Shown piece after piece: positions 1 through 19,631 of a stretch of 20,000 bases of DNA. The notes beneath the pieces were generated by a model. It was given only the letters and a program-made list of their open reading frames with translations, made no database searches and had not been told where the DNA came from. The stretch is from Dimargaris cristalligena. Lineage: Eukaryota. Position 1 is the stretch's first letter, and every line of letters starts with the position of its first letter. The position numbers and the translations under genes are program-made. The stretch is from NCBI GenBank assembly GCA_003614675.1, contig ML002224.1:54864-74863 (forward strand), given 5' to 3'.

Positions 1-807
1 AAAATCTTGCTGAGCTGTCTATACTTGGTATTTAACATGCCCAGATATGTAGTCGTCATCCATACCCAATTTGCCCTTTTTAGGTGCAGCTAGTTGGAGG
101 TATTGGAAATGCCCTTGAATCAATTTGACTAACCATCGAGCCCTGTTAGTCTATTTCACGATTAGACGCCGCATTGCAGTCCTCACACGGGCCCCAAACT
201 CAATAGGTCTCTCTGTGTCACCTATAGCAGTCATTCGCTGCTTTATAGATTGGCCGACTCATTCAGCCTCCTCAGCCCAGGGTTACTCTAGTCTCGATCC
301 GTCCCCCCTGACTCAGTAATCATTGACGTTTATCGTCTATATATTTGATTGGCGGATGTGGTGGTCTTTACTCCACCGCCCTAAGTAAGGAGGTGGCATC
401 GACAGGTCGGTTATATTTACCCGATCCCTCGATGCTGTGCTAGGATGAATCACTGTGGACTCTCGATAGGCGGAATAAACCCCACCTGTACAACATCCTC
501 AGGTGATTCCTACACCGAGGCTTATAGGCTGGGGCGGGGTTTGATTACATTAGAAATGCTATATGTTGGATCGGGAGTCTACGTTCAGTACGGTTCAATT
601 GGGCAAGTTTCTCGGGTTGGATTGTATAAAAGGGGGGGTATGTTTCCCGCCATCCGGTTATTAAGCTAGGCAGTATCCGCTCATGCCATTTGGATATTTC
701 CAAATAGTTTTTTTGTTAGTTAATTATTAGCCTTGCTATTTTCCTCTGATTTACCGGTTCCGTTTTAGATCATAGAAATAACACTAATTAGGGTACATTA
801 TTACACG

Positions 808-3257
808 ATGGATCATCCACGTACCGCTTACCGTCCCCCACCGTATGGGCTTTCGGAAGAATACATAGCTAAGCACTTGAAAGACCTACCAGGTACCCAT
901 ACCACTGACCGGATTGAAACTTTGGGCGAGGAGCTCCAGAACAGCCACCAGGTTATTATGTGGTTCCGTACCGATTTCCGAGTCAGTGACAATACTGCCC
1001 TACACTACGCCATCGCCAACAGTCGCCATGCCAAGGGGCAGGTTATTGCCCTGTACGTCGTAAGCCCTGAGGAATGGCTGTTGCATGGGGTGGGTCCAAT
1101 CAAACTCGACTTCTGGTTCCGTAATTTAGAATGTCTCCACGAAGAGTTGGCCCTGCGGGACATACCCCTGGTGATTTTAACCGCCCGACGTGCCGCGGAC
1201 GTCCCCCATATTGTAACCTCGTTTTGCCGCCGGATGCACGCCCTGCACTTGTTTTTCAACATTGAGTATGAGGTCGACGAACTGGCGCGCGATCAACGTG
1301 CCATTGAGCTACTTAATTCGACAGGAGGAAGGCCAGCTGAAGCGTTACATGCCAATGGCTCCCCCCCTGCCTCTACCACTCCCACTGGGTCTCCGCCTAT
1401 CCACGTTCACCAGTTTCATGACCAGTGTATCGTGGAACCGGGAACGGTCCTGACCAACGAAGATAGGCCCTATAGCGTATATTCCCCCTTCCGACGCAAG
1501 TGGTACCAGGTGTTCGCGCAGAACCCGGATTTCCAACGCCTGCTGCCGGCCCCGGGAATTCCCTCACCCATGGACCGGACTCTGAATTTTCAGAAGCGTC
1601 ATCCGGCCCTGTTTCTTACTGCCAAACAATTCAGCTCGTACTGGGCGGAACTACGCGGTCTCCTCCCGGTAGATCTCCAGCTGGACCCCGAAGCCTCCCG
1701 CCAGGCCGGGCAACGCTACGGGGTGGGCGAAAAACACGCTCAGACTTTATTGGCCGATTTCACCCGCCTCGTACTTTCCCAGTATAAGGAGCGGCGGGAT
1801 TTCTTCGGTGATGACGCCGGTACCAGTCGTCTCTCCACCTATTTGGCGTCGGGGATCATTTCCCCCCGCCAGTGTCTCCATGCCGCCGTGGATCACAATG
1901 ATCAGCGCTTGGAGTGCGGCGACCCGGGCGCCGTTCACTGGATTCAGGAACTGATCTGGCGGGAGTTTTACCGGCATGTCCTGGTAGCTTTCCCCCGCGT
2001 ATGTAAGAATCGGGCATTTAACCCCCGTGGCGACGGGATTCAGTGGAACGATAATCCAGAAGGCTATAAGCGATGGTGTGAGGGCATGACAGGGTACCCC
2101 ATTGTTGATGCCGGTAAGTAAGCTAAATCAGTGTCTTTACTTTAATGTTTACACAATAATGAGTGGATACGTGAGAGATGGGAAGTAGTGAGTCGGCCCC
2201 TATAATTCATATGTGTTTCGATGGGGATGGCTAATTACGAATTTATATATATATATATATCGACTGCGATCAACTTCTGTAATTTATTGTAGGGATGCGC
2301 TATTTGAATGCCATCGGGTGGCTCCACAACCGCTTGAGGATGGTGGTGGCCATGTTCCTAACCAAGGACCTTCTGATCGACTGGCGTTTGGGTGAAAAAC
2401 ATTTCAATCGCTACTTGATCGACAGTGACTTTGCAAGCAACAACGGGGGTTGGCAATGGGTAAGTTGATTTTTTCACAATAGGCTTTATCAGATGACTGC
2501 TATGGCTTACCGCATTTCCAATTTAAAAATTCTATAGCACGACACTCCCACTAATTTCCGGATCTACTACTAATGCCGTCATGATTCTCCCTTTCACTCT
2601 ACCTATCCAAACACACACACAAACACTTCATACATTCCGTCTCTTTTCCGTCCTTCTACACGGGAGTTTGGCATTTCCCCCATGATTAAGTCGGGTTCCA
2701 CAGGAACGGATGCTCAGCCGTATTTCCGGGTATTTAACCCACTGCTCCAATCGGAAAAATTTGATCCATCTGGCCGGTTTATCGCTCAGTGGGTCCCCGA
2801 GCTGAAACCCCTTTACGATAAGGGCATTAAGCGGACGGCCGACAGCAAATCCAAACTTCCCATCCATGCACCCTACGAGCGATTAAGCACCACTGAGTTC
2901 AAATCCCTCGGGTAAGTGAATTTCGGTCCAGTAGAACTATTATTTTTGGTCATGTAATGTATACCAAAGGATGGGATGCAAGGGAATGGGGATGAAAACG
3001 CATCTTAGGATGATTCTTGACTTCATATATTTACAATTGATTTCCCCAAGACAGTAACATCTCTCCCCTTCGCCCCATGACATACTCTACCTGGGCGGTT
3101 CAGAGTTAACGAGAAAACCCTTATACATCTTCTAACCTGCCTTCTTAACATTACTTCCTATTTCTCTCCCAGATATCCGAAGCCGATCGTCGAACATCAT
3201 AAAGCTAAAGATATAGCCATTAAGGTGTTTGAAGCGGCGCTTAAGAAAAAGCCGTGA
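808..3257 (+). CDS. PHR1: Class I CPD DNA photolyase, probably MTHF-antenna type; 4 exons: 808-2113, 2293-2459, 2691-2911, 3173-3257 (592 aa)
   Basis: Motifs [41 protein letters not shown] and [11 protein letters not shown] lie in exon 1. Splicing at three GTAAGT donors (2114, 2460, 2912) restores [58 protein letters not shown] and GYPKPIVEH. Exons sum to 1779 nt, in frame, ending in TGA at 3255-3257. Trp-triad equivalents are present. Confidence 0.96.
2244..2260. repeat. (TA)n microsatellite in photolyase intron 1
   Basis: tatatatatatatatat read directly. Confidence 0.85.
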
Positions 3258-5104
3258 TGGTTGGATCTGAGGTATGGAATCCACCTGTATGTTATCGGAT
3301 TGCCTTTGTCTTGGCGAATGGTGGTCCATGATTTCTGTCCATCTTTTAAAAATCAATTTAGTCGTGGGATTGATAATAAAGATAGTCCAGTGATAACAGC
3401 TTATACCACCCCTTCCCTCCCCCCTGCAGAAAAAAATACTTCGCGTTTGCCAATAGTCATACGACTATAACCAACCCCTCTTTTTGGGCCACAGATTTCT
3501 GACTTAAATTTGAACAATCGGTTCCTCTGAATAATAAAACAGACTTGCTGTGCACTGTCCGGGGTTCCTGCTGTATAGGTGCGAAAAGGTAGCGGGTATT
3601 GGGTTAGACGTTGCTTATAATTTGTTACCTCAACGTATCCTCCCACATTTAATCTTTTACGATAGTCCTATAAACCCAAGTCTTACATTTCCTCTCTGAT
3701 ACAGTGTACATTCCAAGGGGTCTAATGTCATCTAACTCTATACTGTTATGGTATGAGTGGCGCACAGGGAACTGTATGGGCAGTCGGCTAGTCGAGTGGT
3801 GTCCATGTGGAACACAGTTAAATGATGGGCCAGTAAAAGCAATGTGGCCCTGGTCGTAGGACTACAGCTCCGTGCCAAACCAGCGGAGGGTGGTCAGCAA
3901 GACGTATTGATGCATTCGCCAACGGCACTTGCGAGTACAAGTAGCAGTCGTCCGTCAAGATATATAGGGGTGTTTGGTAGGATCTCTGTGGGGTCGAAAA
4001 GGAAGTGGATTTTACACCTTTTTCCGCTATTTTAAAATCTAGAGGTGGGAAAAGGGCAGGCAAAGGATTGCCCTCCACCAGGGGCAAACGGAGTGTGCTA
4101 ATGTTCTGATTCGCGGTTCCGTTTTGGATTACAAGGTCAAATAACCGAGCCACACCCGTTCTTACGCATTGGGATCGGGCTGGCAGACTGTGTTATCTGA
4201 TCCATAGGGCAGCCTAGTGATACTAGATCACCCATCCCCTTTCTAGGTTAGTATATATCGGCCGGTCCTGCGCCCTGCCGAAGCCCCAACCCCTTTGGGT
4301 CTTTCTCCCACTTTATTTGATCCTTGATAGTGGTATTTTCTAACATCGCAATCCTCACTTGGCATACCTGTGGTGGTTGCCTATTGCGGTTTATTATTTA
4401 GTGCTCCCTTCGTTTCTCGTTCGACGCCCTACCCTTTAAGGAAGGGACTAGGTCCATTATTGTTACCACTCCCCCCCCCCCGCATCGGTTTCCTATTTGG
4501 GCTTACTTCTGCGGTGTAAACGTGACCATACAGCGTATATCCATGACCTGCACGCACGCAGCACATAAATATCCTAGGAGACTCGCCCACAGCCCCCGAC
4601 CTCCTCCTACTGCTTCGTTGTACGGGCCATTCTCGGTTGCTCAAGTGGTGCTGTAATTTAGCTGTGGCCAATTGAGCACATGGGAGAAGTTCATCCAAGC
4701 TGTATAACGAAAAATCCATTAAATTCGGCCAATATTACTAGTTAAAAATACATTCCCCATGTATTTTCCCATACACGTATAATGCAAACCCTTATATAGC
4801 TGGGCCGAATTTCACCCACATATTCTAGGCTAAACTGCATTAGAGTTTGCCACCCATCCACTTCTAATATAAACATTAATCCCCGGTCTTTTTGTTCCTC
4901 GTGCGATACTTTGTAAAAGAACACATCCTGTATTGAGCCACTCGATATTGGTTATTTCATTTTGAATAGTTTATTTTCATTCTACTATTTGATACATTTC
5001 CTACTACTCCTTCTTATTTATATTTTACTGCCCGAATAGGTTTTTATATTTATATCTTATTTAATAACTTTACCGGCGCCTCTATCAGTGAAATCCCATA
5101 CATA

Positions 5105-6394
5105 ATGCACCATCAAAAGGTGCTCGACCGTATCCTTAATGGGCTCACCTGCCCACCCATCAGCCTACCTGAGTTCCGCTATTACCTTACGCACCACGAG
5201 TGTAGCTTAGAAAATCTCAATTTCCACGAGTGGTATCGGAACTACACTTGCGCCTATCAGGCGCTTCCCCAGCATCAACAGGCGCTGATCCCATTGCCCC
5301 GCAATGATGTCATTCCGACTATGTCTGCCACTATGGTTCCCGGCTCCATTCATGTAACGGAGCCTAAATCATCTGTCGGTGACGAGATACTACCACCACC
5401 ACCTTCCGGCAGCCTTCCCCCTCCCACTAACGATCTACCCTTGCGGCAACAATGCCAGGAAGCGCTCGACCGGTTCATCCACCACGGCGCCCCGGATGAA
5501 ATAAATATCACTCATCAAGTTCGCGTCGCCTTACTTGCCCAGGTCCACTATACGACCCACCCGGCGATATTCAATCCTGTTCTAGCCGAGGCCATGTCCC
5601 TGATGCGCAACTCCTCCCTCGACGGGTTTATGAAATGGGCCAGCCAGAACATCACCCCTCGTTCCCGGAAATGGCGCCTTCTGGGGGCCGCTCTGGTCGA
5701 TGTGCTGGCCGTGGTGGCATTGGTGGTCTTGATCTGCCTGGATCTGCCCCGGGTGTACCGGTGGGCGCTTTTCCCGCCTATTCTATGGACGATTGGGGTG
5801 TATTGTACGAACACCCACCACGTTTGTTTAGTCCATTTGATCAGTAAACGGCGTGAATTGAGTTTGCTGCAGCCGAGTCGGCTAAATGGGTTGACAATGG
5901 GGGGACCTGATACATCTCGGCCGGTGCTGAACGACCCCTACGATGGCCAACTTTCCTCGGTTTCCCATTCGGGTGACGACCAGAAGAGTGCAGTAGCCGG
6001 GGGGAAGCCATCCCAGTCCGCCCATTCGCTGTCTATCCCCATGCTACTGACCTCTCCACTCAAGGGCTCAACCCCTACGCTCCGGTCTCTTTCGGCATCG
6101 ATAATCGACCCCACAACCGGAACCGTTACTATGGATCAGGGTACTTCTATTTATACGAAGCAAAGTGCTTGTAAATCGGGAAGTATATGCCAATGGGAGG
6201 ACGTTTACCCTACCGGGAATTCGTTTGACTCGCCGCTATTCCAAACCACCGTGGTGCGAGGTGATCATTATTATCAGGTCCAAGAACCATCGGTGCTTCG
6301 GGCCCAGCGTATCATGGCCATCAAATACCTCGCTCAAACCTTGGTTATAACGGCGGCCGTTTGGGTCTTCATTATGTTTCTACCGTTTTCTTGA
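5105..6394 (+). CDS. RGS-domain membrane protein, Rax1/RgsB-like architecture (N-terminal RGS domain plus about 3 C-terminal TM helices), single exon, 429 aa
   Basis: LDRILNGLTCPPISLPEFRYYLTHHECSLENLNFHEWY and FIHHGAPDEINIT are typical fungal RGS motifs. Hydrophobic segments are LLGAALVDVLAVVALVVLICL, WALFPPILWTIGVYC and YLAQTLVITAAVWVFIMFLPF. Confidence 0.85.
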   Translation: MHHQKVLDRILNGLTCPPISLPEFRYYLTHHECSLENLNFHEWYRNYTCAYQALPQHQQALIPLPRNDVIPTMSATMVPGSIHVTEPKSSVGDEILPPPPSGSLPPPTNDLPLRQQCQEALDRFIHHGAPDEINITHQVRVALLAQVHYTTHPAIFNPVLAEAMSLMRNSSLDGFMKWASQNITPRSRKWRLLGAALVDVLAVVALVVLICLDLPRVYRWALFPPILWTIGVYCTNTHHVCLVHLISKRRELSLLQPSRLNGLTMGGPDTSRPVLNDPYDGQLSSVSHSGDDQKSAVAGGKPSQSAHSLSIPMLLTSPLKGSTPTLRSLSASIIDPTTGTVTMDQGTSIYTKQSACKSGSICQWEDVYPTGNSFDSPLFQTTVVRGDHYYQVQEPSVLRAQRIMAIKYLAQTLVITAAVWVFIMFLPFS

Positions 6395-6602: not shown

Positions 6603-7898
6603 TTAGGATAGGGTCTGTAGACCCAGAGTAGCCGGAGTGACACGGGCTTCGACCACCCCCGGTTCATGGAAGCTCATAATCTCACCATCAATGCACACTG
6701 TATGACGAGCGTTAGGGTTAGGGGAATGCGATGCCTGGAGTGGTCGTTGGGAGGAAGGTTGCATGGTCAAGCCGCGCACCTTATAGTACTCGACGTAGGG
6801 GAGTTGCACATGGGTACCTCCCCCCACGGTGGCCCCCTGCAAAAAGGCCCACAGTTGGGCCCGGGTTAAACCGCGGCCCATGACAACGTCCAGATAGGGG
6901 TCGGCCGGGGTAGCCAAGGGGGCGATACAGAAGCCGGCGCTTAGGGTGGCCTGTTTGGCGGCCAGAAAAATGGTGAACGGGCCATCGAGCTCTAATGTGT
7001 CCTGTCCGCGGTTTAAACGGTCGGTGGCCTGGGCCAGTGGGGTGGCGTCATTATTCTCGAGAGAGCGGAACTCCCCTTCAAAGGGTGAAGGTAATGTCGG
7101 AGGATTCGGCTCAGCAGTCGAGGATGAGGATAGGGGCGGGGTGGTAGTAGCAGTAGGAGAGGGATAAAATCGACGGGCCCCTTCTAATCGGACGGTACCA
7201 TGATAATCCCGCAACGTCAGCAAATTCTTGAACCCGATGATACTGAACCGGCTAGGGCCCAACCAGCGTAACCACTCGGAGTCGGCGACATTGCTGCAGT
7301 GGAATCCCCAACTAAGCACACAAAAGCTCTGCCGGAGGGTGTCCGGGGGCGGTGGGGGTACTCGAGTGCCGTCGAGGCTAACCGCATCTGCCGGGACTTT
7401 GGTTTCGATTAAATGGAATGGCTGTAAGCAGGGGTGGGTCTGTATGGTAGGATTGGTATAGCGGTGTATCGCCTGATCAACATCTGTAAAGCCCAGACTG
7501 GCGGCTAAAGCGTTACCTGACCCCAAGGGGACCACGCCCAGCCACACGGGCCCTGAAGCCTCCCTTTGGGCTTGGTGTACTCCGTTCACCACTTCATGGA
7601 TGGTACCGTCCCCACCAAGGCATAGGATAAGCAGCGGGAAGGTAGTGTCGACCGGGTGAGAGCCAGAGCCACCCTGGCGGGTGGATAGGATCCAGTCATG
7701 GGCCAGTCGCTCGGCGTGGGCCTGGCCTTGGGTGGTTTCCACCAGGGCCGGGGTTTGACCGGGTCCGCCATTCGCGCCGTCGCCGTCGCCCGAGGAAGAC
7801 CAGAACTCGGTCAGTTGAGCCGTCCATGTTTCCACACGGGAACGGTCTTGTTGACCGGCCTTGGGGTTCACAATGATTAAAGTACGAAATGGCCGCAT
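6603..7898 (-). CDS. DAGK-catalytic-domain lipid kinase (sphingosine kinase/YegS-like family), about 431 aa
   Basis: Motifs IIVNPKAG, LGGDGTIHEVVNG, VPLGSGNALA, SWGF..ADSEWLRWLGPSRF, IAPLATPADPYLDVV and IDGE. First ATG is at 7898; the track start at 7907 is a TTG. Confidence 0.9.
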   Translation of the reverse strand: MRPFRTLIIVNPKAGQQDRSRVETWTAQLTEFWSSSGDGDGANGGPGQTPALVETTQGQAHAERLAHDWILSTRQGGSGSHPVDTTFPLLILCLGGDGTIHEVVNGVHQAQREASGPVWLGVVPLGSGNALAASLGFTDVDQAIHRYTNPTIQTHPCLQPFHLIETKVPADAVSLDGTRVPPPPPDTLRQSFCVLSWGFHCSNVADSEWLRWLGPSRFSIIGFKNLLTLRDYHGTVRLEGARRFYPSPTATTTPPLSSSSTAEPNPPTLPSPFEGEFRSLENNDATPLAQATDRLNRGQDTLELDGPFTIFLAAKQATLSAGFCIAPLATPADPYLDVVMGRGLTRAQLWAFLQGATVGGGTHVQLPYVEYYKVRGLTMQPSSQRPLQASHSPNPNARHTVCIDGEIMSFHEPGVVEARVTPATLGLQTLS

Positions 7899-8425
7899 GT
7901 TGGGCAACTATAAACAAACAATAATAAGAAATGAATATAGAGGCTAAAGACCGAGGGAGGGCAAAATAGGAAGAAACAATCTAATTATTATGCCAAATAA
8001 AAGGTGAAAGAGAAGGAGGAGGGCAGCAGATGATTTACAGAGTGTATCATGCTAAGGCGATCAATACTTATCATAGTCCAGAAGGGGATTATAGGCGCGG
8101 CGGACAGGTTATTTCGGAATGTAGGAATCCGATAAGCAGGATTGCTCCCTGGGTTTATTATGTCAGTATGGAGGCTTATCCGTGGCGCTATGTATATGAG
8201 GGTATCGTCAGCAACAGCACAATAGCCTTGGGTCGGTTCATTTCCTTGTGTTCCCTAATAATGGTGGTATTAGTCCCAGGCGGCAATCCTTCGTAATTGG
8301 ACCCCGATGGCGTCAGCCCCCCCTCTGTTTCTTTGGTTTGGTCCTGTGGGAGGGGTCCTAAATAGGTCTACGTTCTCACACAGCCAAGCTGGGGACCTGA
8401 TGATTAATTAGCCAGGTCACACCAC

Positions 8426-10270
8426 CTAGAACCAGAAACTGATGCTGAAACTCGTGCTTAGGGAGCGAACATAGTGCCACCAGTAGGGCTGATTACCAGG
8501 TACATTATGGCGGTTCAAACACAGGCTGGTATTAGTATACAAAGGCAGGGTTTTTGGCCTCGCTGGAGGGAAACAACCCCCATCGATTATTTTAATAATT
8601 TCTATCCAGTGGTTAGCGATATCTACAATTGCCCTTGTGTCACTTACCGGAATATACAATATTTGCCCGGGAACCAGAATGCATTCGTAGTAAGGGGTCG
8701 AGCGGAATTCGGGGAAACAGTCGTCGTCTATGTTATCCAAATCAACCTGGCTGGTGTTGGTCATGAGGCTATCCTCGGCGTTAAAAGGATATAACCGCCC
8801 TGACTGTGCGGGTGAATAGAGGCGGATATATTTGTAGCCTACCACTTGCGTTAGTAAATTATGGTACGGGTCATGGTGGAGCGGCGACACAGTACCCGCG
8901 GGGCCGAACCAGCTATTGAGCAGCGGTTCAGCAGGGGCGGGACATTCGGCTTCGTTACCATCATCATCCGGATCAGGTCCACAGTAGCAGTAATCAGGCA
9001 CGGCTATATCCTGACGTAGGACCGGTACTTGGGCCAATAGATCATGCTGGGCTAGGTAGCCAATGGCCGGTGGCGGGTCAGGCATATTTGGAAGTTGTCC
9101 TGCGGTCTCTCCGGAATCACCCTGGTCACTAGCGGCGGCGCCCGTGGTGCCTGGGCGAATTAGATATTGCTGTACAAACTCAGCCAGCGGCATGAGGCGC
9201 TGGGACCAGTGGGGGCTGGTATAATCAGGCCCTATTTCGACTGGAACGAGGCGGTCGGCACCAATAGTCCGAACAAGATAATTCAAATCCCCCCAGGGAC
9301 GGTCGGATAAAGCGGGCCAGTGATCCACTGCTCTGGTAATAATTCGGGGCGGGGTGGGTGATGATGATGATGCCGATGATGGGTGAGGCGCCGCCACCAA
9401 ATTAGGCTGGATGCCTAAATTGAGATCGTCGGTCGCGGCGGCGGTAACGGCGGGTCCTGCAATATACTCAGTGAAGGCTACTATGGAAGGGCATTCCCAT
9501 TCGGCGACTTTCTGGCCGAGTGGATCGGCTGAAAAAGGCCAGATTAGGGGCTCCTTAATATCCAAAACGGGATACCGGATTTTGGAAGTCGAGGGAATAA
9601 TGGAGGTAGGGGCGGCTGTTGGCTCTGAACGAGCTAAATAGTCCAAGGATCGACGAAGGAGCTCACCGCGACCCGAGGGACCTCCGGTTACAATAAGGGC
9701 CGTATCCAATACCGCTGTTAGTCGCGACCGGGTGGTACAGTCGATCTCTCGAAACTCGTACCCGGCAGTGGCTTCGTGCAGCTGATAGAGGGCCTTAAAG
9801 AGGCTAGCATCGCTGAACAAAAGCCGCCATTTTGCGTGGACCTGGTCGTAACGTACACTATATATTTGGCCTTGCGCATAGTCAAGGAGAGACTCGATGG
9901 TGACTGCCAAGGTGGTTGTAGTTGAGGGTACTGCCGCCCCTTGGCCAAAGCAAAAGGGGGCTAGGCTGGGCTTCTCAGCTTTACTACCGGGCAAGTCGTG
10001 GCTGGAACAACGGGCATTGACTTGAGCCGCCAACCCGCCTAAAGACATTCGGTAGAGGTAGAGAACATCAGACGGCCATTCCGGTGGCTCGAGATCAGCA
10101 GCCTGGTCCAGCCATGGCTTCTGCAATTGAGCGAGTGTCGTCGTAACAAGGTCAAGCAGGGGCATGGGGACGCGAGCCGAGGGAATGTGGTGGCTACCTG
10201 TTACTAAATTCAAATAAAGGAGAGCATACAAATGAAAGTAGTTTAAGAAGTGTAACGTCGAGTCTCTCAT
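8426..10270 (-). CDS. JMJD5: JMJD5/KDM8-like JmjC (cupin-8) 2-oxoglutarate oxygenase; one intron at 8647-8489; start may instead be the ATG at 10165
   Basis: HWPAL..W, RLVPVEIGPDYT..WSQRLM, GYLAQHDL..QVPVLRQDIAVPDY, NSWFGPAGTVSPLHHDPYHNLLTQVVGYKYIRLY, NTSQVD and, after splicing, YIPPYWWHYVRSLSTSFSISFWF. The HxD...H iron ligands are present. Confidence 0.92.
   Translation of the reverse strand: MRDSTLHFLNYFHLYALLYLNLVTGSHHIPSARVPMPLLDLVTTTLAQLQKPWLDQAADLEPPEWPSDVLYLYRMSLGGLAAQVNARCSSHDLPGSKAEKPSLAPFCFGQGAAVPSTTTTLAVTIESLLDYAQGQIYSVRYDQVHAKWRLLFSDASLFKALYQLHEATAGYEFREIDCTTRSRLTAVLDTALIVTGGPSGRGELLRRSLDYLARSEPTAAPTSIIPSTSKIRYPVLDIKEPLIWPFSADPLGQKVAEWECPSIVAFTEYIAGPAVTAAATDDLNLGIQPNLVAAPHPSSASSSSPTPPRIITRAVDHWPALSDRPWGDLNYLVRTIGADRLVPVEIGPDYTSPHWSQRLMPLAEFVQQYLIRPGTTGAAASDQGDSGETAGQLPNMPDPPPAIGYLAQHDLLAQVPVLRQDIAVPDYCYCGPDPDDDGNEAECPAPAEPLLNSWFGPAGTVSPLHHDPYHNLLTQVVGYKYIRLYSPAQSGRLYPFNAEDSLMTNTSQVDLDNIDDDCFPEFRSTPYYECILVPGQILYIPVSDTRAIVDIANHWIEIIKIIDGGCFPPARPKTLPLYTNTSLCLNRHNVPGNQPYWWHYVRSLSTSFSISFWF
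8489..8647 (-). other. 159-nt stop-free, in-frame (3n) intron in the JmjC gene
   Basis: GTAAGT donor at 8647, TACTAAT branch at about 8537-8531, TAATCAG acceptor ending at 8489. Removing it restores the conserved YIPPxWWH motif. Confidence 0.9.
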
Positions 10271-10669
10271 TGACTAGGCTAGGGCTGGTATTATTGTGCT
10301 TATGTGTTTCCACTAGCTATTTCGCAGCTAGTTCAAATTTTAAGTGTCTCTCTTTCATACCTTCAGCAATATTCTACCAAATCCGTGAAAATGATATAGG
10401 GGGCTGATACAGTAATTTGACTAGGGAGCTGGCAATCATCTGAATTTGCAAATGGTAGTATCATCGCTGGAACATGATATAGAATGCGATTTATTAGCAA
10501 GCTCAAATCTTTGACCAGGGTTCAATTGAATAGATCCATAGGCCATGGTCGCAAAACAATCATAAAGAGCATATAAAACAATACATGGTGTGTCATTCTT
10601 AACCGAAACATATATAGAGATAGACGAGAATGATGTCCTGACCCAACTCAGACATACACGCGGGCTAAT

Positions 10670-11959
10670 TTAAGACGAATCCGTCCGGCGGGCGGGGCGA
10701 GTCCGGGATCGACCAGGGGCAGTTGGCCGTTTGAAATGCAGCGGATTGGGGGCCGGATTATGGTTCGATTTAGTGGGTGGCAAGGAGTCCATGTCAATTC
10801 CGCTGGTCTGGGCCGCACTCGCCGCCTGTTGCTGGAGAACCGGTTCAATTTCCTCCTGGATGTAAGCATCAGTTAATTCCGACAAATCATCCGTTTCCAG
10901 GCGCTTGGTGAACTGGTAGTCCAGGGATTTCTGGATATAGTTGACCAGTCCGCCCCGGTAGGCGGAGAAAAGCATGCGAGTGCGGACGGGGGATGTGATC
11001 GGGCAGTAATAAATGAAGATGGGGTATTGGCTGTTATCCGTGGCTTCTGTGCCGGTAGCCCGGAATCGATAAAGAATGAACCGGGGCTCGTCGGCGGGAA
11101 TACGGGTGACCAATTCGGCCGTGTCACGGACCGAGAAGGCCGCAGTTTCGACGGGATCCATGTCCAGACTCTCCGTCTCCGTATCCACCCGCAGGATTAC
11201 CGCATTGTCGTCGGTGGTGGCCCCGGATTTGGTCAAAGCTTGGTGGAAGGCCTCCAGCGCTGCCTCGGCCGATGGGGTCGCATTAAATTGGACACCCGGC
11301 ACATGGGCGCGCCGGGAGCTCGACGTCAAAGTAAGCTGCTCCAGATCGGCCGCCTGTTCCTTTTCCAAGCGGCGGATTTCCTTTTCCCGCTCGCTTAACG
11401 GCAGGTCGTCCAAGGGGTCCTCCCCCGCCAACTCTCCTTTACCTTCCCCTCCCGCCAACTCTAGCAAAGACCGGATTCGGTGGCTGCGGGCGAATTCCGA
11501 TAGGGTAGCAAACCGGATATCTTCGGCGTCCCGGACGGCCATAGTATGGACGAATTTATTGCTGCCCAGTTGTTTGAGGAGCGTACTCTGAGTGGAGGCG
11601 TAAATCATCTTTTCGCGCACTTTGCCGTGGTCGGGGATGTAGCTGATAAAGAGCCAACGGTCTTCGAGGTAGGTCGGAGAAGTATCGTTATGAGTGTCCG
11701 CTGCCTCCGCGGTCGACGGGGAGGTGGTGGTGTCGAGGCGGTAGAGGAGGTAGCAGGGGTCGTTACTACTGCCAACGAGGGAGGTCAGCTTGCCGAAATC
11801 GGCGTCGGCGTTCTGCTGCCATTCCCCCACGTGGTTCGCCTGGAGGGCCCCATCTGCAATGGTGACCTGGATGAAACGGGTGGTCGAGTCACTTTGGGTG
11901 GCCTGGGCAAACTGCTCGGACAGGGCCAGGGAAACTTCGATACCGCTCTGGTGCGACAT
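10670..11959 (-). CDS. TWF1: Twinfilin (two ADF-H domains plus C-terminal capping-protein-binding tail), single exon, 429 aa
   Basis: N-terminus MSHQSGI; PCYLLYRLD; WLFISYIPDHGKVREKMIYAST; linker PLSEREKE; IPADEPRFILY; FIYYCP..SPVRTRMLFS; tail FKRPTAPGR. Confidence 0.95.
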   Translation of the reverse strand: MSHQSGIEVSLALSEQFAQATQSDSTTRFIQVTIADGALQANHVGEWQQNADADFGKLTSLVGSSNDPCYLLYRLDTTTSPSTAEAADTHNDTSPTYLEDRWLFISYIPDHGKVREKMIYASTQSTLLKQLGSNKFVHTMAVRDAEDIRFATLSEFARSHRIRSLLELAGGEGKGELAGEDPLDDLPLSEREKEIRRLEKEQAADLEQLTLTSSSRRAHVPGVQFNATPSAEAALEAFHQALTKSGATTDDNAVILRVDTETESLDMDPVETAAFSVRDTAELVTRIPADEPRFILYRFRATGTEATDNSQYPIFIYYCPITSPVRTRMLFSAYRGGLVNYIQKSLDYQFTKRLETDDLSELTDAYIQEEIEPVLQQQAASAAQTSGIDMDSLPPTKSNHNPAPNPLHFKRPTAPGRSRTRPARRTDSS

Positions 11960-12946
11960 GGTTATTTATGTTTTTGTCACTTTCTCGTTTTTGAAATGGG
12001 CGGGAAGATATTAGGGGGGTGAAGGGTAATAATGCGGAGGTCAAAATACTAATACTATGGACAGGTAGGAATGTTGAATTGAACGGGTATATAAAGAGGT
12101 GCAGAAGAGGGATGGGAACGGAGAACACGGGGTGAAACTCTGGGAGCCAACGGCCATATACTATAACCATAGGAGGGGGTGTGAAACATGCTAGGTATAT
12201 ATATATATGATATATTACCTTAGTAACGGTACTGACGGACTGGGATATGGACGCTGGCTCTACAATACGTAACCCCTGCACTGTCCCGCCAAGGCTCTCC
12301 TCCTGGTGGGCTCCCTGGGTTTTTAGACTTGGGTCCTGTGATCAATTGTTCGTCGCATTGGAGATAATTAAAACTTCCATCGGCCAAGGCATGAGATGCG
12401 GAGTGCATGATACAGATACTAATACTGAGACTGCCACCGCTGTACAAGGTAAGTGGACAATCCAAGCATCCATCTGGAATCATTTAGCCTAATGTAAACT
12501 ATGGAGTATGGGAGTTCCCGGCTGAGAGGTTCCCTAACCGCTGGATGGAAAATATACCCAATCAGAGGGGAAGAATAGGCCAAGCCAATGCTGGCCCACT
12601 TGATGGTCTATCGGTCTGTGGCTAAATCGAGGCTGCAGCACACAGCCGGACGAGGCTCATCTAGTGAGGGATTTTCGCCCGTCGTTATAATCCAATCATC
12701 CAACCAGAAAGTTCGGCATACCCCCCTCCCCGCCGCACGGAAATACAACACGCTCTTTACGCTATAGACCAAGTCGCAATCACCTATTGGTTTATTACCT
12801 TTGCAGAGAAAGCGAACCGATATATACAGAACGTGTAATGAGGATCACAACATACGAGAAATTATATTACAATGCATTGCGAATGGATAGTGACCCCCCA
12901 AAATGATAAACAGTAATCAATCCGAATCGGGTCGAATTGGGAGGAA

Positions 12947-14393
12947 TCATTGGGTGGAAGTGCGTGGGGGTTTGAGCGAGGCTGGTGGAACCGATGATGA
13001 TGGAGGTACAGTGGTTGGTTTGGTAGTCGAGGCAGCCAGATCACGGATTAAAGCCCGTTTCATACGGGATATGATGACCTCGGTGGGCCGGTCAAGAAAC
13101 TGCAGGGTGGCCACTAGGGCATCGTGTTCGTTCGAGGACCGTTGGTACTGGTCTAATTTCCGCGTCAGGGTAGTATTGAAAAATGAGTCCATCAGTTGCA
13201 GTTGTTGATCAACCAGCCGGCGATTCGTCTCGGTCTGCTGGTGTATATTAGCCCGGTCATTAGTTCCACTACTTATCAATAGGGGGTCCAGGGCGGATGG
13301 GGTAAGGGGGATGTGGGCTAATGGTGGGGGATTCGGAGACTCGAATAATACTTTAAGGTACGAGGAAGTGACCGCAGACGCGATTTGTAAGCTGCAGGGA
13401 ACCAGTATAGAAGTTGAATTATTAATAGGGGCAGGGAAGGGTAAAATTGTTCGTCCGGTCGGATGACAATGGCGCTGCCGGTAGGGTAGCTGGAGGTACT
13501 TTCAGGGATGGGGTGGATAAGACAAGTGGTGAATTAAGGGGCAATGTATTATGGAAGGCCCGGTCGGGCGCAGAGTTCTGCAGTCCACGAGTCTCAACTG
13601 GGCCTGCTTGGGTCATACAGGTGGGGTGTCGGAGTTTCGGGCGGAGTTTATCCATGGATGTCTGGGCACAGTAAGCGTGCAGGTCAACGGAGTTGTGGTA
13701 ATGCGCCAACGCAACCTGTTCTGCATGAACGTGGAGGGGGGAGTTGGACGCCTTGGTAGGCCGCCTAATCCCATTCGATACGGGCGTCGGGTTGGGCATG
13801 GTAGGGATCGAAACTGGGCCAGGTTGGCTAATGGTTGGGCCCGTGAGTGAATCGGACATGCAGGGCAGCCAAATTACGACCCCCAATAGGGGCTGGAGCT
13901 GAGGCAGGGCCTCCTGGGCCAAGTCCTCGGTGAAGGAGTCATTAGGAAGTGGGGCGGGGTTTATCGACAAGGGGCGGGTCGGTTTGCTTGGGGGATTAGT
14001 CGTGGCAGTGGGAGCCACCCGCCGGGCAGCTATGACTTTAAGCAGGGCCGATTCAATAGTGTCAAAGTAACAAAGGGCCACGTCGCGCGGCTGGAGACTG
14101 TTGGTGGGGACATTGACCGCTGGTGCACAATACCACCCCACAACTGTAGACGCCGACGCTGCTGAGGCCGAGTGTAAAGGGTTGACCACGTGAGCATTGA
14201 GAATGGAGATAAGGTCGTGGTCGGAGTGGGAAAAGGGGACCAGCCCATCGATTTGGATGTGGACCTGGGGGAGACCCTGGGAATCAAGTACAGTCCGACG
14301 TTGGCCACAAAGGATCCCTTGTTTTGGAATCAGGGTCCCGCCCATGGCGATGAGTTTGGCGTAAGCCTCCGCTGGGATCGTAGCGGAGGGCAT
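12947..14393 (-). CDS. Divergent MPN-minus domain protein resembling Abraxas/ABRO1 (FAM175), with a C-terminal helical/coiled-coil segment; encoded in two frames (14393-13422 and 13501-12947), junction unresolved
   Basis: The N-terminal pattern ATIPAEAYAKL..QGILCGQ..DSQ..HIQIDGLVPF..VVGWY..QPRDV resembles remembered Abraxas (GFLLGE..DSQ..IDIQKYIP..VVGWY..TFRE). There is no JAMM HxH motif. The second frame is open from 13501 and ends in an amphipathic helical region. Confidence 0.55.
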
Positions 14394-14603
14394 GATTAAG
14401 TATTCCGGTAATAAACTCGAGTGAGAGTGGATGGGTGAAACGGTCCTGTAGGGCTTTGGGAGTAAGGGTGCTGCGGCGGGTGGATTAGCCTGATGGATGA
14501 GAGAGATGGACTAAAAGATATGTCTGGGCGGGGTGAGTGAAGAAGAGAGGGGGGGGTAGGTAGGTAAAGTAGTTGGAGTAGAAAGGTGGGGGAATCGGAG
14601 CGG

Positions 14604-15162: not shown

Positions 15163-15456
15163 CTATTTGGCGGACTGCTTGTACATAGTCGTGTCGAGAA
15201 TTTTGACCCCGCACATGGCGCATATACCCTTCTTGTACGCGCAGGCCTGGCACCAATTGGCCTGGGGCTGGTGCACCGCTGAGCGACACACCTTGCATTT
15301 GCTCGAATACGGCTGGAAGCGGTTCTTCTTGGCAGCCAGCAATTTGTTTTCGTTGAGTTTGCGATCCTTGCCAACGGTGGCGTTTCGGGAACCGGCTTTC
15401 CAGGTATCGGAACACGCGACTTTGCCCAGCTTCTTTTCGCATTTTTGGCACACCAT
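15163..15456 (-). CDS. CRIPT: CRIPT (cysteine-rich PDZ-binding protein; minor-spliceosome-associated zinc protein), intronless, 97 aa
   Basis: MVCQKCEKKLGKV..DTWKAG..RKLNENKLL..CKVCRSAVHQ..WCQACAYKKGICAMCGVKILDT..YKQS closely matches the CRIPT family. The likely ATG is at 15456. Confidence 0.95.
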   Translation of the reverse strand: MVCQKCEKKLGKVACSDTWKAGSRNATVGKDRKLNENKLLAAKKNRFQPYSSKCKVCRSAVHQPQANWCQACAYKKGICAMCGVKILDTTMYKQSAK

Positions 15457-16213
15457 AGCGGATAATAATAGGTCAGGAAAGGCAAGTGCGAAACAAAGGG
15501 AATAAGGAAAAGAGAGAAAGGGGGGCGGGTGGAATCTAACTGAAAGTTGGCTAACTAAGAGACACACACCCAGCTAGGGAAGAAGCAGTGTATGTTAACT
15601 GAAGTCCTCCAAACCACTTTGTCCTTGATAAATAGTCAAAGGGGAAAGAAAAAGTCGGTATAGCCCGATAAATCCTACGCCCCCCCTTTTGGCTTCTCCT
15701 GTATACGAAGAATGCCTGTCCTCCAGTAGGCGGGTTTCGGTCAACGATAGGTAGGTAGGTGGGAGACACCTTCCTTCCAATGTCTTTGTGACAGATGGGG
15801 GGAGGTTTTACAGCCTCTTTATTAGCCTTGGCTCCCACTACTAGGCTGCGTCAGTGGCGCGCGTCAGTCCGCCCTGGTTTCTTCCCCCCGGAAATCGCCA
15901 GTGTAGAAGGTTTAAAAGGCCCCTTATTCCCCCCCCGAAGGTTTCCTCCAATAGCTTCTGTATCTTTCCCCAATCCCTCATTTATATTTTCATACTTCCA
16001 TTTGTCACTTATCCTTTTGTAGTTTCTTTAAGCATTCCCCCTTCTAGCGAGCCATTCCACGCGCTATTGATCAACAATACAGCGTATACTTCGCATCCGT
16101 CCTTCGCTAGCCTACAGTCCGACCTCGTACCCCAACCACCCCTGGTCGCGATCTCCCGTACTATCCCCCCCCCCACATTCGCGTGTCCTATCACCCCATC
16201 CCCACCTCGGACC
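15457..16213. promoter_or_regulatory. Divergent (head-to-head) intergenic/promoter region shared by CRIPT and NELF-A
   Basis: 757 bp between opposed ATGs, with pyrimidine-rich leaders on each transcribed strand. A central GC-rich core has GCGTCAGT twice (15848-15855, 15861-15868) around GGCGCGC. Confidence 0.55.
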
Positions 16214-19200
16214 ATGTCGGGCGAACAAAAGGTCAAGCTAGTCCAAGACTGGCTAACCCAAATCCACAACAACCACCCCCATTTCCGGGCATCGGCCATC
16301 CTGGCCAGCGAAATGACCCTCGACAACTTCCCCTACATCATGGCGCTGTGGTCCTCCCTCGATTCCGGTATCAAACTTAATTTACTCTTTTCCGCCGCTA
16401 TCGTCCGTAAGGGTATGCTTCCTACCCTATTGCCGTTCTTGGAGCAGGTAGGTTATTCCCCTTAATCCATTATATAGCGGACAATTGGCTCAGGCCGATC
16501 AACCGAATTCGGTTTATTTAGACCAAACCTTTCGGAGTATATAGATCTAGGCTGCCGTATTTTCCTGCGCTACATCCCGGTTAGTTTCTCTATCCAGGGT
16601 AACTTCAATGTGCCCTGGGGTGAGGAATGGTGGGACCATATTGGCAATACCACGGCTCAGTTACATGTCAGCAGCATACCTACCCCAGTTCACCCTGGGT
16701 GCCCCCAAACAAACCTTGGCAGTATACTAATGCAATTGGTCCTACCAAGTGAAACACCCAGTTGGATGCCTGTTATTAGAATGATGCATCTTGTTGGTGG
16801 ATACTCTGAAGAACAATGTACACTTATATAGAATACCCCCCGGGTTTCTATTTGAGGCCAAGTGCGTGAATAGACAGTGTTGGTGGCCGAATAATCGGTC
16901 AAGCTATCAGCGATATACCACACTGACGTGCACTTTTTGGATTTCAGCCCAATCCCGAAATATAAAACCATTCCTGGTACATAAATTCACACAAGGGGTT
17001 AGGGACAGGGTGCAATTATGAGATACATCAGACCTTGCATATGATAGACTTATTGTTATAATAAGCTGCTCAAGAAAGCTGAGAATAAAGTGCCCTTCGC
17101 TGGCTTCTCCAAGGCCCGACTATCTCAAAGTTGGGTACCAAACCAGCTTGACAATGAAATTTGCACATTTCCCTCCAACCAATAAAATGCCCGCTATCCC
17201 TAATGAGCACCCATTTAAGTGAGAATAAAACAAACAAACAGATGAAAGGCCTATGATTAGGCATTCAGCCCTATAATCTTAATATTATGAGAACTTTACT
17301 AATAGTCAACCGTGATATGTATTTTACCTGTTTATTTTTATCTATACCCTCCCGTAACCCATGTCATACAGATGCTTGCCGTCGCCATTACTGATAAAGA
17401 TTCGTGGGTTTCAACCATTGCCAGAGTACTCCAGCCCTATCCGAGCCGCGGTACCATTAATTTGGCCACCCCTGAGCTGACACAACTCAATCAGTCCGCC
17501 ATGGAAACCCGTAAGTGCACTATACATTTTCCTTCCGTTTCTATGCGCAATGGGTCCATCGTTTATAATTATTTTACGACCTATGCCATGCCAAGTATGG
17601 CGTGTAAGAAATTTACTGTATCGTTACTATCCCCTTCGGCTTATGGGCTAGTTATCGAGGCTTGTCCGCTAATACACATCCCCCAATTATCTCGTACTGA
17701 TTTTTAACCCTATGCTTATTCTCTTTTTTATTACATTGTCTTAGTTCGTGAGGCCCAAATCAATATCGCCCCGAAGGACTACGCCCTACTCAACTCTCCC
17801 GTTCGCGAGCGTATCTGCCCCCGCTTCACCTCGATTGATATCCTCCAAACTAACCGCGCCGTATTCCAGGTTCAGCCAAAGGCCCAAATCGCCCATACCG
17901 ATCGACTGGATGCTTTACGTCAGGCCGCTAAAGATGCCATCAATGGGGCCAAATCAGGCCTCATGTTCACTAAAACCCAGCCCCCCGCGGGTATGGGTGG
18001 GGTCGGGAGCCGCCCCGGTGCGATCGTGTCCCCCACGCATCCCAGTAAACCCGTTATCGGTGGTTTATCTCGCCAGATGCCCCCCAGTGCTGGGGTACGG
18101 CCGGGAATGCCGGGAAGTAATCCCGCTATTTCCAGCTTGTTTGTAAACCGCAAGAAACCGGCCACAGGCGCGGCCTCTTTCTTGCGTCCATCGGCCCCAA
18201 AACCCGCTAACACTGCGATTAATCGAGGTAATTATTATGATGTTCTGTATATACAAGCCCTAGCCCCCCTATTGTATTATATTATGCCGCTAGCCCTGGG
18301 AAATGGTCTCCATATTCCAGCAACCCACTGAGCTGTTTAACTTATACTAACAAACTGGTTTATTATTTTGTCTGGCTCCATCTCAATAGTAATTCCGGCG
18401 GGTGTAACTAGCCGGCCACAAAAGCAGAGTCGCGTTAAAATGCTAGACATCGATGAGGCCCAGTCTATTAACAAACAGCAGGAGGAGACTAAAATCCGCA
18501 CGAAAGAGAGTAAGTCCAATGTCCTTTAATTTGTTTTTTCTCGACTATCCATGCCATTTTAATTATGTTTGATTCAAGTTCACCCCTAATGACTTCGCCA
18601 TCTCGTGAGTGAACACTAATCAATATGCCAATTATCCCCGCCCTGGTATACCATTTCTTCTTCCCTACTCTCTTTTTCCAGACGAAATTGCGGAACGGGA
18701 AAATAAGCGCCTACAGGCCAAAAAAGAAGCTGAGGAACGCAAAATTCAAGAACAGGAGCGCAAGAAGGAGCTTCAGCGTGAAAGGCTGGAAAAACGAGCG
18801 CAGCGTCAGAAACAAAAAGAGGAGGAGGTCGCAATCAAGGCCGTTAAGCGCCAAACCCGGAAAGAGCAGCGCGAGGCGGCGGCCAAGCGCAAGGCCGATG
18901 AAGAGTCCGATGACGATGGCGATAACGTTGATAGTGATGGGGATGGTGATATAGATACTGGCGTTACAAACAAGAGTAAATTCCCCAGAAACAGTCGCAA
19001 GGAATCGACTTCCGACGATATCGAATCAGGCGAAGACCGGGGCGTCGAAGTCAACGAGTCGCCTAGCGGACCAACCAAACGCCGTCGATTGGTGCGACGG
19101 GTTTCCCGGATTCCCGACTCAGATGCCGACGATCTTCCCGATTACGAAGATAATGAGGGTGACAAGGACATACAGGTAACCGCTAAACCCAAACCCACCC

Positions 19201-19631
19201 GTTCTGCGCCAACCGCAAAGACCGTCGACGATGACGGTGACGAAGAGGATGACGACGACGACGATGGTCCTAACCAAGGGGATATGAAGGTGGATACCTC
19301 CGCGGCTGCTAATCAACCTACCACCGCTTCATTACCTAACAATGATCTGAGCGATGTTCCCCCTCAACTCCACGATCTGGTCGGTACGATTTTCCGCCAT
19401 AGTAATGTACTTAATCCCGTCGATCGGCGCGTTATCATCGATTTCCTATCCGGTAATCAGGACCGCCAGGCCCCTAATATTGACGACAGTGGCGTCTACC
19501 GGGCGGCCGTGCACCAGCAAATTGTCGCCGACCCGGCGACGGGTGCCCAAATGATAGAGCACATCGATTTTGAAATCGATTATAATACTGGTCATTGGCG
19601 TCAAATGAAACGGCGGTCACAAGCAGCTTGA
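16214..19631 (+). CDS. NELFA: Negative elongation factor A (NELF-A) homologue; 5 exons: 16214-16447, 17372-17510, 17745-18227, 18390-18509, 18682-19631 (641 aa)
   Basis: GT-AG introns give a continuous 1926-nt frame. N-terminal DWL..LDSGIKLNLLFS..EQ|MLAVAITDKDSWVSTIARVLQPYPSRGTINL resembles human LSSAVKLKLLLG..ASLDSDPWVLMVADILKSFPDTGSLNL. QKQSRVKMLDIDE resembles RKERGVKLLDISE. C-terminal IFRHSNVLNPVDRRVIIDFLSG..FEIDYNTGHWRQMKR resembles MFKTANKVTRPEKALILGFMAG..FEMNYATGQWTRFKK. Human sequences are from memory. Confidence 0.88.

What the first reader, a model, noticed from the sequence alone, without database searches (positions are those of the whole stretch)
16214..19631. Apparently full-length NELF-A in a fungal-type genome: candidate metazoan-style promoter-proximal pausing
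Seen: five exons splice in frame into a 641-aa protein that no ORF in the track shows whole. It keeps three NELF-A hallmarks in the right order: the N-terminal NELF-C-binding helical domain, the VKMLDIDE motif from the Pol II-contacting tentacle region, and the C-terminal FEIDYNTGHW domain. Established: NELF enforces Pol II pausing in animals and is absent from budding and fission yeast. Inference: this lineage may retain a working NELF pausing system, which is largely unstudied in fungi. Scattered non-animal NELF homologues may already be catalogued, so novelty needs checking.
Basis: partly seen in the sequence, partly recalled or inferred. Interest (0 to 1): 0.85.

Follow-up and report, generated by a model that had tools for sequence, protein, structure and literature searches.

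The report
Fungal NELF-A gene, ordinary orthologue
This is a real gene of the fungus Dimargaris cristalligena for NELF-A, one subunit of the complex that holds RNA polymerase II near gene starts in animals; such genes already carry automatic database labels in many early-branching fungi, so it is an ordinary member of a known family, and whether it pauses polymerase in fungi remains untested.

Summary
Five exons (16214-19631, +) splice in frame through GT..AG introns into 641 aa.

The window is Dimargaris cristalligena (Kickxellomycota). The public model, called a hypothetical or HDAg domain-containing protein, has 664 aa because it adds a 23-codon exon at 16598-16666.
- That exon is absent from 15 of 15 aligned homologues.
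- It splits the conserved domain.
- It is modelled as an unstructured, low-confidence stretch.

NELF-A identity is secure.
- A profile of four Dimargaritales orthologues finds human NELF-A at E 4.8e-14.
- Profile-profile comparison with animal NELF-A gives 99.5% probability for the N-terminal domain and 97% for the C-terminal domain.
- The only five significant fold matches are NELF-A chains.
- The VKMLDIDE motif is collinear, but weak taken alone.

Orthologues occur in many non-Dikarya fungi, Amoebozoa and a glaucophyte, several already labelled NELF-A. Non-animal NELF-A is also in print (PMC4940160; bioRxiv 10.1101/2023.02.19.529146).

The functional claim could not be tested. No genome is held, so NELF-B, NELF-C/D and NELF-E could not be searched, and no RNA run was listed. 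This is a new member of a known kind, of modest interest.

The parts
16214..16447 (+). Exon 1 (aa 1-78). Start codon at 16214. [quoted passage not shown]
   Evidence: In-frame splice model. N-terminus aligns with 15 homologues. AF2 helices with pLDDT 86-97.
16448..17371 (+). Intron 1 of the five-exon model, 924 nt, GTAGGT..CAG. Much longer than the other three introns.
   Evidence: No Pfam match below E 0.03 in its ORFs. No Rfam family. No repeats.
16598..16666 (+). Disputed 69-nt exon, used only by the public 664-aa model. Probably not coding.
   Evidence: Adding it reproduces P0001 exactly, and its donor is GTCAGC. Absent from 15 of 15 homologues. It splits the domain hit: 97.2 bits as one piece against 30.3 + 48.3 bits. 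Scores against three relatives are 507.3 and 478.3 bits. The AF2 blocks covering it have pLDDT 52 and 51 and no secondary structure.
17372..17510 (+). Exon 2 (aa 79-125, first base of codon 125). Contains the conserved D-x-D-S-W-V turn. Trp aa 90 (17405-17407) aligns with human W89.
   Evidence: Exon 2 alone hits Pfam NELF-A_N at E 0.0037. Alignment to human NELF-A. W89 is described as inserting into a NELF-C pocket in PMC4940160 (passage).
17745..18227 (+). Exon 3 (aa 125-286). Holds the 'extended region' of the N-terminal NELF-C-binding part, up to about aa 194, then a Pro/Gly-rich disordered linker with an F-L-R-P-S-A-P-like motif.
   Evidence: hhalign aligns query positions 12-197 to animal positions 8-193. 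Human APFRSPTAP aligns with it. pLDDT is below 50 over P0001 residues 221-319.
18390..18509 (+). Exon 4 (aa 286-326), with VKMLDIDE at 18434-18457.
   Evidence: Coordinates. Collinear with human VKLLDISE. Alone it is weak: hhalign E 0.0013, probability 18%, 17 columns. A motif of this form is found in 36 of 151 family members against 9 of 3020 shuffles.
18682..19631 (+). Exon 5 (aa 326-641 plus stop at 19629-19631). Holds the K/E/R-rich long helix, an acidic disordered stretch and the C-terminal domain.
   Evidence: AF2 helix at P0001 residues 329-419, disorder at 424-565.
18449..18893 (+). Long charged helix (aa 306-396 of the 641-aa form; interrupted by intron 4).
   Evidence: AF2 helix H329-419 in P0001 numbering, pLDDT about 90. 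Coordinates. Only a weak sub-threshold CAF1A_acidic hit.
19353..19628 (+). C-terminal NELF-A domain (aa 550-641): two helices and a three-stranded sheet. FEIDYNTGHW lies at 19569-19598.
   Evidence: hhalign against animals: probability 97.2%, E 4.6e-11, 99 columns. AF2 pLDDT 88.4, pTM 0.75. Atlas structural match to an arthropod NELF-A cluster, TM 0.73. No Pfam family. No PDB fold match at E <= 0.001.

Best explanation
The locus is the single-copy NELF-A orthologue of Dimargaris cristalligena, inherited vertically within fungi. The public 664-aa model probably carries a spurious 23-codon exon.

Shown here: the protein has the family-wide three-part architecture.
1. An N-terminal helical domain homologous to human NELF-A residues 6-188, the part that wraps around NELF-C.
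2. A disordered 'tentacle' with two short motifs collinear with human ones.
3. A small C-terminal alpha/beta domain shared with animal and amoebozoan NELF-A.

Inferred: it most likely works as in animals. The N-terminal domain would bind a fungal NELF-C/D, and through it NELF-B. The flexible remainder would reach over Pol II-DSIF to slow early elongation.

Because NELF-E is reported only from metazoans, the fungal complex would be a three-subunit A-B-C/D form. Any pause it makes need not be the focused animal type.
For: Gene model
- In-frame GT..AG splicing.
- Contiguous alignment with 15 homologues across the exon 1/2 junction.
- An HMM of three relatives scores the five-exon form 507.3 bits and the six-exon form 478.3 bits.
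- An HMM of 11 non-Dimargaritales NELF-A N-terminal regions gives one 97.2-bit hit over aa 6-194 for five exons, against two pieces of 30.3 and 48.3 bits for six exons.

Identity
- A profile of four Dimargaritales orthologues against PDB sequences puts three NELF-A sequences on top: E 4.8e-14, 9.5e-12 and 1.3e-10. The next hit has E 0.019.
- hhalign against three animal NELF-A gives 99.5% probability, E 1.5e-22, over 178 columns.
- The C-terminal domain gives 97.2% probability, E 4.6e-11.
- Foldseek on the AF2 model finds 5 matches at E <= 0.001, and all 5 are NELF-A chains (TMt 0.46-0.58). The sixth hit has E 0.087.
- 49 of the 59 best profile hits carry Pfam NELF-A_N.
- Human W89, which inserts into NELF-C (PMC4940160, passage), is conserved.

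Vertical descent
- In a tree of 20 named sequences the 14 fungi form one side of a branch (support 84/97), the animals another (100/100), and the five Dimargaritales form a clade (100/100).

Context
- NELF-B and NELF-C/D are reported as widely distributed in eukaryotes and lost in the two model yeasts (bioRxiv 10.1101/2023.02.19.529146, passages).
Against: - Pfam NELF-A_N on the public model scores only 20.6 bits, below the 27-bit gathering cut-off, and covers only profile positions 69-120. Exon 1 alone gives no hit. I could not run Pfam on the five-exon product.
- Single-sequence phmmer against human NELF-A is marginal, E 0.0054.
- The second NELF-C-contacting tryptophan, human W24, aligns with Arg25. 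Only a neighbouring Phe24 is aromatic.
- The tentacle motif match is weak taken alone.
- No splice junction has RNA support.
- No partner subunit was seen in this genome because none could be searched.
Confidence: 0.8

Rival explanations
1. It is a true NELF-A homologue but does not act in a pausing complex. It would be a relic or a repurposed protein, working with NELF-C/D alone or in some other nuclear role, with no focal pause in this fungus.
For: - No other subunit could be shown here.
- NELF-E is reported only from metazoans, and species with only core NELF show weaker, dispersed pausing (bioRxiv 10.1101/2023.02.19.529146, passages).
- W24 is not conserved.
- A long lineage-specific charged helix and an acidic tract are inserted between the motif and the C-terminal domain.
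Against: - All three conserved modules are kept across fungi, Amoebozoa and animals. This argues for a conserved, constrained function.
- The only known role of the N-terminal domain is to bind NELF-C (PMC4940160, passages).
Confidence: 0.3
2. The public six-exon, 664-aa model is the true or an alternative product. The 23 extra residues would be a lineage-specific loop in the N-terminal domain.
For: - The exon is in frame with AG/GT borders and reproduces the deposited protein exactly.
- Using it shortens the unusually long 924-nt intron to 150 + 705 nt.
Against: - Absent from 15 of 15 homologues, including the congener D. verticillata.
- It lowers profile scores by 20-29 bits and splits the domain.
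- Its donor GTCAGC is unlike the four other donors: GTAGGT, GTAAGT, GTAATT, GTAAGT.
- AF2 gives it pLDDT of about 51 with no secondary structure.
Confidence: 0.15
3. The resemblance to NELF-A is chance or compositional, or the gene is animal contamination or a horizontal transfer.
For: Much of the protein is low-complexity (K/E-rich and D/E-rich). Single-sequence E-values are marginal.
Against: - The significant matches lie in the two ordered domains, not in the charged tracts.
- The fold search returns only NELF-A.
- The gene sits among ordinary fungal genes on a 74.9-kb contig.
- It groups with other fungi, not animals.
Confidence: 0.02

Closest known systems
Human NELF-A (NELFA/WHSC2), chain U of PDB 6GML and 8UHA, chain A of 5L3X
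   Same: - N-terminal helical domain plus extended region, aligned without gaps over human 23-117 and by hhalign over about 8-193.
- Conserved W89.
- Collinear APFRSPTAP-like and VKLLDISE-like motifs in the disordered region.
- Homologous C-terminal domain, human 424-520.
- Same predicted fold for the N-terminal part.
   Different: - About 17-21% identity.
- W24 is replaced by Arg25, with Phe24 adjacent.
- A helix of about 90 residues, rich in K/E/R, and an acidic disordered tract of about 140 residues lie between the motif and the C-terminal domain.
- Partners and pausing activity are unknown.
NELF-A orthologues of other non-Dikarya fungi: Dimargaris verticillata, Tieghemiomyces, Dispira, Basidiobolus, Mortierella sp. 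AM989 ('Negative elongation factor A'), Geosiphon, Diversispora, Funneliformis, Paraglomus, Radiomyces, Umbelopsis, Mycoemilia
   Same: - Full-length collinear homologues, E from 0 to 1e-22 with the Dimargaritales profile (names).
- They form one fungal group in the tree.
- Several carry Pfam NELF-A_N or NELF-A names.
   Different: - This copy's public model has an extra 23-residue exon.
- Dimargaritales have Phe/His where the other fungi keep a Trp near human W24.
Non-opisthokont NELF-A homologues: Acanthamoeba castellanii, Balamuthia mandrillaris and the glaucophyte Gloeochaete (found here); Dictyostelium and Chlorella (in PMC4940160)
   Same: - N-terminal domain.
- In Balamuthia (P0018) and in the unnamed representative P0021 of the cluster that holds the Acanthamoeba protein, also the mid motif and the C-terminal motif, in the same order.
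   Different: More divergent, with long lineage-specific insertions. For example, Acanthamoeba has an insert inside the N-terminal region.

Membership tests
NELF-A (Pfam NELF-A_N, PF23553; human NELFA) | N-terminal helical domain plus extended region homologous to human NELF-A 6-188 | tested here: met
   - Profile against PDB: E 4.8e-14, N-domain i-E 1.4e-9.
- hhalign: 99.5% probability, E 1.5e-22, 178 columns.
- Own HMM of 11 outgroup NELF-A: 97.2 bits over aa 6-194 of the five-exon product.
- Foldseek: 5 of 5 significant hits are NELF-A.
- Against: Pfam itself on the public 664-aa model gives 20.6 bits, below the 27-bit cut-off. The extra exon splits the domain. Pfam could not be run on the spliced 641-aa product.
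NELF-A | The two invariant tryptophans (human W24, W89) that insert into NELF-C pockets (PMC4940160, passage) | tested here: inconclusive
   W89 is conserved: Trp aa 90 of the 641-aa form, window 17405-17407. W24 aligns with Arg25, with Phe24 adjacent. Other non-Dikarya fungi keep a Trp 2-3 positions upstream.
NELF-A | Disordered region after the N-terminal part carrying the conserved motifs (human APFRSPTAP, VKLLDISE) | tested here: inconclusive
   Collinear matches, with stretch i-E of 35 and 3.3. hhalign on the cut-out region gives E 0.0013, probability 18%, 17 columns. A regex for the motif hits 36 of 151 family members against 9 of 3020 shuffles. Contact with Pol II was not tested.
NELF-A | Conserved C-terminal domain (human about 424-520) | tested here: met
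   hhalign: 97.2% probability, E 4.6e-11, 99 columns. Atlas structural match to an arthropod NELF-A cluster, TM 0.73 over residues 573-664. Confident AF2 model, pLDDT 88.4.
NELF-A | HDAg-like domain as defined by the PROSITE/InterPro profile | not tested
   Only the UniRef name 'HDAg domain-containing' for this protein was seen. That profile is not among the tools. [quoted passage not shown]
NELF complex (A, B, C/D, E) | Genes for NELF-B, NELF-C/D and NELF-E in the same genome | not testable with these tools
   No whole genome is held for the window. No tool supplied a NELF-B, NELF-C/D or NELF-E sequence to use as a query. The scan holds no other notes on this genome.
NELF complex | Physical binding to NELF-C/D and Pol II-DSIF, and stabilisation of a promoter-proximal pause | not testable with these tools
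   Needs biochemistry and PRO-seq. No partner sequence was available for a co-fold.

The most novel reading that the evidence does not exclude
Early-diverging fungi keep a working three-subunit NELF (A, B, C/D, without E). The complete NELF-A architecture (NELF-C-binding domain, tentacle motifs and C-terminal domain) was already present in the common ancestor of fungi, animals and Amoebozoa.

This would revise the published view that the Pol II-binding part of NELF-A was added on the animal stem. It would also make NELF-dependent pausing testable in culturable fungi such as Mucorales or Mortierella.
Probability: 0.35. Interest if true: 0.6.

Novelty: new member of a known kind. Interest (0 to 1): 0.3.

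Why it matters
NELF is usually taught as an animal device that yeasts lack. This locus, and the orthologues found with it, show that a complete three-module NELF-A is widespread in non-Dikarya fungi and reaches Amoebozoa.

It suggests that genetically tractable fungi with the gene could be used to ask what NELF did before animals.

For this particular gene the practical result is small. It is already auto-labelled in databases, and the main correction is that the deposited model probably contains a false 23-codon exon.

Tried and rejected
- Whole-genome search for the other subunits: no genome is held for this window.
- RNA support for the junctions: no RNA holder was listed.
- Pfam on single exons: only exon 2 gave a weak NELF-A_N hit. 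Exons 1, 3 and 4 gave nothing, and exon 5 gave only a sub-threshold CAF1A_acidic match.
- Content of the 924-nt intron: no Pfam hit below E 0.03 in four ORFs, no Rfam family in the whole window and no repeats of 25 nt or more.
- Antisense ORF 18809-19141: no family. I take it as a mirror of the low-complexity coding tract.
- Stand-alone C-terminal-domain proteins: ten short hits (89-213 aa) were looked up. Eight are unnamed predictions with no accession, most of them on short contigs. One is a partial Lunasporangiospora model and one a Pleurobrachia fragment. There is no evidence of a separate family.
- Fold of the C-terminal domain: 0 PDB matches at E <= 0.001, best TM by query 0.38.
- Literature on NELF in early-diverging fungi: 'NELF' + 'Zoopagomycota' gave 0 papers and 'NELF' + 'Dikarya' gave 0 papers. 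Two broader searches listed nothing relevant. 'NELF, fungi, pausing, lost' gave 17 papers. I read passages of three of them. PMC4215175 and PMC12716044 do not discuss fungal NELF. Passages of bioRxiv 10.1101/2023.02.19.529146, read earlier, mention fungal NELF only as the loss of NELF-B and NELF-C/D in the two model yeasts.
- Earlier notes of this scan: none on this genome or sequence. There is one note on a Naegleria NELF-B.
Full report
**Observation**

On the + strand, exons 16214-16447, 17372-17510, 17745-18227, 18390-18509 and 18682-19631 join to 1926 nt. That is 641 codons plus TGA, with no internal stop. The four introns are 924, 234, 162 and 172 nt, with donors GTAGGT, GTAAGT, GTAATT, GTAAGT and AG acceptors. 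No single ORF covers the gene.

**Source and public model**

A search with the C-terminal part returned one 100%-identical protein, P0001. It has 664 aa and is named 'hypothetical protein BJ085DRAFT_37079 [Dimargaris cristalligena]'; its UniRef name is 'HDAg domain-containing'. The species belongs to Kickxellomycota, Dimargaritales.

These are encoded by a sixth exon at 16598-16666, and adding that exon reproduces P0001 exactly. No 641-aa version appeared in the two database searches that covered its length.

**Which model is right**

The evidence favours the five-exon form.
- The 23 residues have no counterpart in any of 15 aligned homologues: four Dimargaritales including the congener D. verticillata, eight other fungi, Acanthamoeba, a shark and a sponge. 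All of them run without a gap across the exon 1/2 junction. The exception is P0004, which lacks a longer stretch there.
- An HMM of the three closest relatives scores the five-exon product 507.3 bits and the six-exon product 478.3 bits.
- An HMM of 11 N-terminal regions from outside the order gives one 97.2-bit hit over aa 6-194 for five exons. For six exons it gives two pieces of 30.3 and 48.3 bits.
- The extra exon's donor is GTCAGC, unlike the other four donors.
- In the AF2 model of P0001 the ten-residue blocks covering it have pLDDT 52 and 51 and no secondary structure. The flanking helices score 78-97.

I therefore prefer the five-exon form at about 85%. There is no RNA evidence either way.

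**Identity**

Taken alone the protein is a marginal match.
- Pfam NELF-A_N scores 20.6 bits against a 27-bit cut-off.
- phmmer against human NELF-A gives E 0.0054, although in three collinear stretches.

Profiles settle the question.
- Three further Dimargaritales orthologues were found and aligned (A1).
- Their profile finds the three distinct PDB sequences of NELF-A at E 4.8e-14, 9.5e-12 and 1.3e-10. The next hit has E 0.019. Profile positions 24-118 align without a gap to human 23-117.
- Profile-profile comparison with three animal NELF-A (sponge, shark, mite) gives 99.5% probability, E 1.5e-22, over 178 columns. This is essentially the crystallised NELF-C-binding region.
- The cut-out C-terminal region gives 97.2% probability, E 4.6e-11, over 99 columns.
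- The AF2 model (mean pLDDT 68.7, with ordered parts mostly above 85) matches only NELF-A chains at E <= 0.001: 5 of 5, TMt 0.46-0.58. The sixth match has E 0.087.
- The profile found 233 proteins at E <= 0.001 among 1.84 billion representatives. Of the 59 best, 49 carry Pfam NELF-A_N.

**The middle motif**

VKMLDIDE (aa 301-308) aligns with human VKLLDISE. An F-L-R-P-S-A-P stretch upstream aligns with human APFRSPTAP.

The statistics for this part alone are weak: i-E 3.3, and hhalign E 0.0013 with 18% probability. However, a regex for the motif hits 36 of 151 family members against 9 of 3020 shuffles. All eight proteins that have the three motifs have them in the same order. I read it as a genuine family motif whose function was not tested here.

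**Contacts with NELF-C**

Passages of PMC4940160 name two invariant tryptophans, W24 and W89, that insert into NELF-C.
- W89 is conserved here.
- W24 aligns with Arg25, next to Phe24.
This is indirect and only partial support for a retained NELF-C partner.

**Distribution and descent**

- All ten of the first ten named hits are non-Dikarya fungi. One is already called 'Negative elongation factor A [Mortierella sp. AM989]', and several are 'NELF-A N-terminal domain-containing protein'.
- Of ten further hits, seven had named organisms: Mycoemilia, Balamuthia, Acanthamoeba, the glaucophyte Gloeochaete, a shark, a mite and a sponge. Three were unnamed.
- I built a tree from the 20 sequences whose organism I knew and left out all others. 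It places the 14 fungi on one side of a branch (84/97), the animals together (100/100) and the five Dimargaritales as a clade (100/100).
This fits vertical descent. It argues against contamination or transfer from animals.

**What is known**

- PMC4940160 (passages) noted NELF-A and NELF-C homologues in Chlorella and Dictyostelium. It suggested that NELF was present in early eukaryotes.
- bioRxiv 10.1101/2023.02.19.529146 (passages) reports four points. NELF-B and NELF-C/D are widespread but lost in the two model yeasts. Apparent NELF-A homologues occur in some unicellular eukaryotes. [quoted passage not shown] NELF-E was found only in metazoans.
- In the held library, 'NELF' with 'Zoopagomycota' or with 'Dikarya' returned no paper.

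**What remains open**

The functional claim could not be tested. No genome is held, no partner sequence was available, and no RNA run was listed.

My reading is that the protein acts as the NELF-A subunit of a NELF-like complex, probably one without NELF-E. This is inferred from domain conservation. The rival reading, a conserved protein with a role other than focal pausing, stays at about 0.3.

**Verdict**

The locus is a real, correctly read gene and a secure NELF-A orthologue. It is already auto-labelled in databases and is one of many in early-diverging fungi. The useful additions are the probable correction of the public gene model and the evidence that all three NELF-A modules predate animals.

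Noticed in passing
window 19353-19628 (aa 550-641): The C-terminal NELF-A domain (two helices and a three-stranded sheet) is conserved from Amoebozoa and fungi to animals. It has no Pfam family and no PDB fold match at E <= 0.001. The solved NELF-A chains matched have only 177-199 residues in the fold library, so they probably do not include it. It looks like a conserved domain of unknown function.
   Followed up: partly
window 16448-17371: Intron 1 is 924 nt, four to six times longer than the other three introns of the gene. It has no recognisable protein, RNA family or repeat inside. The reason for its length is unexplained.
   Followed up: partly
window 15166-15573 (-): A CRIPT-family gene (Pfam Cript, E 1.5e-30) lies head-to-head with NELF-A, about 640 nt upstream. 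The two probably share a bidirectional promoter region.
   Followed up: no
window 769-2912 (+), 4970-6391 (+), 6606-7907 (-), 8429-10273 (-), 10673-11965 (-): The neighbouring ORFs are ordinary eukaryotic genes: DNA photolyase/cryptochrome (split by an intron), an RGS-domain protein, a diacylglycerol/sphingosine-kinase-like protein, a Cupin_8 (JmjC-like) protein, and a protein with two cofilin/ADF stretches that may be twinfilin-like.
   Followed up: no
window 12950-13501 (-) and 13425-14510 (-): Two long open frames (184 and 362 aa) have no Pfam match at E <= 0.001. They may be exons of one unannotated or lineage-specific gene.
   Followed up: no
P0004 (Dispira parvispora) and P0152 (Diversispora eburnea): Public models of relatives also look imperfect. 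P0004 lacks about 20 conserved residues of the N-terminal domain. P0152 is a 1004-aa member of a cluster whose representative has 621 aa, which suggests a fused model.
   Followed up: no
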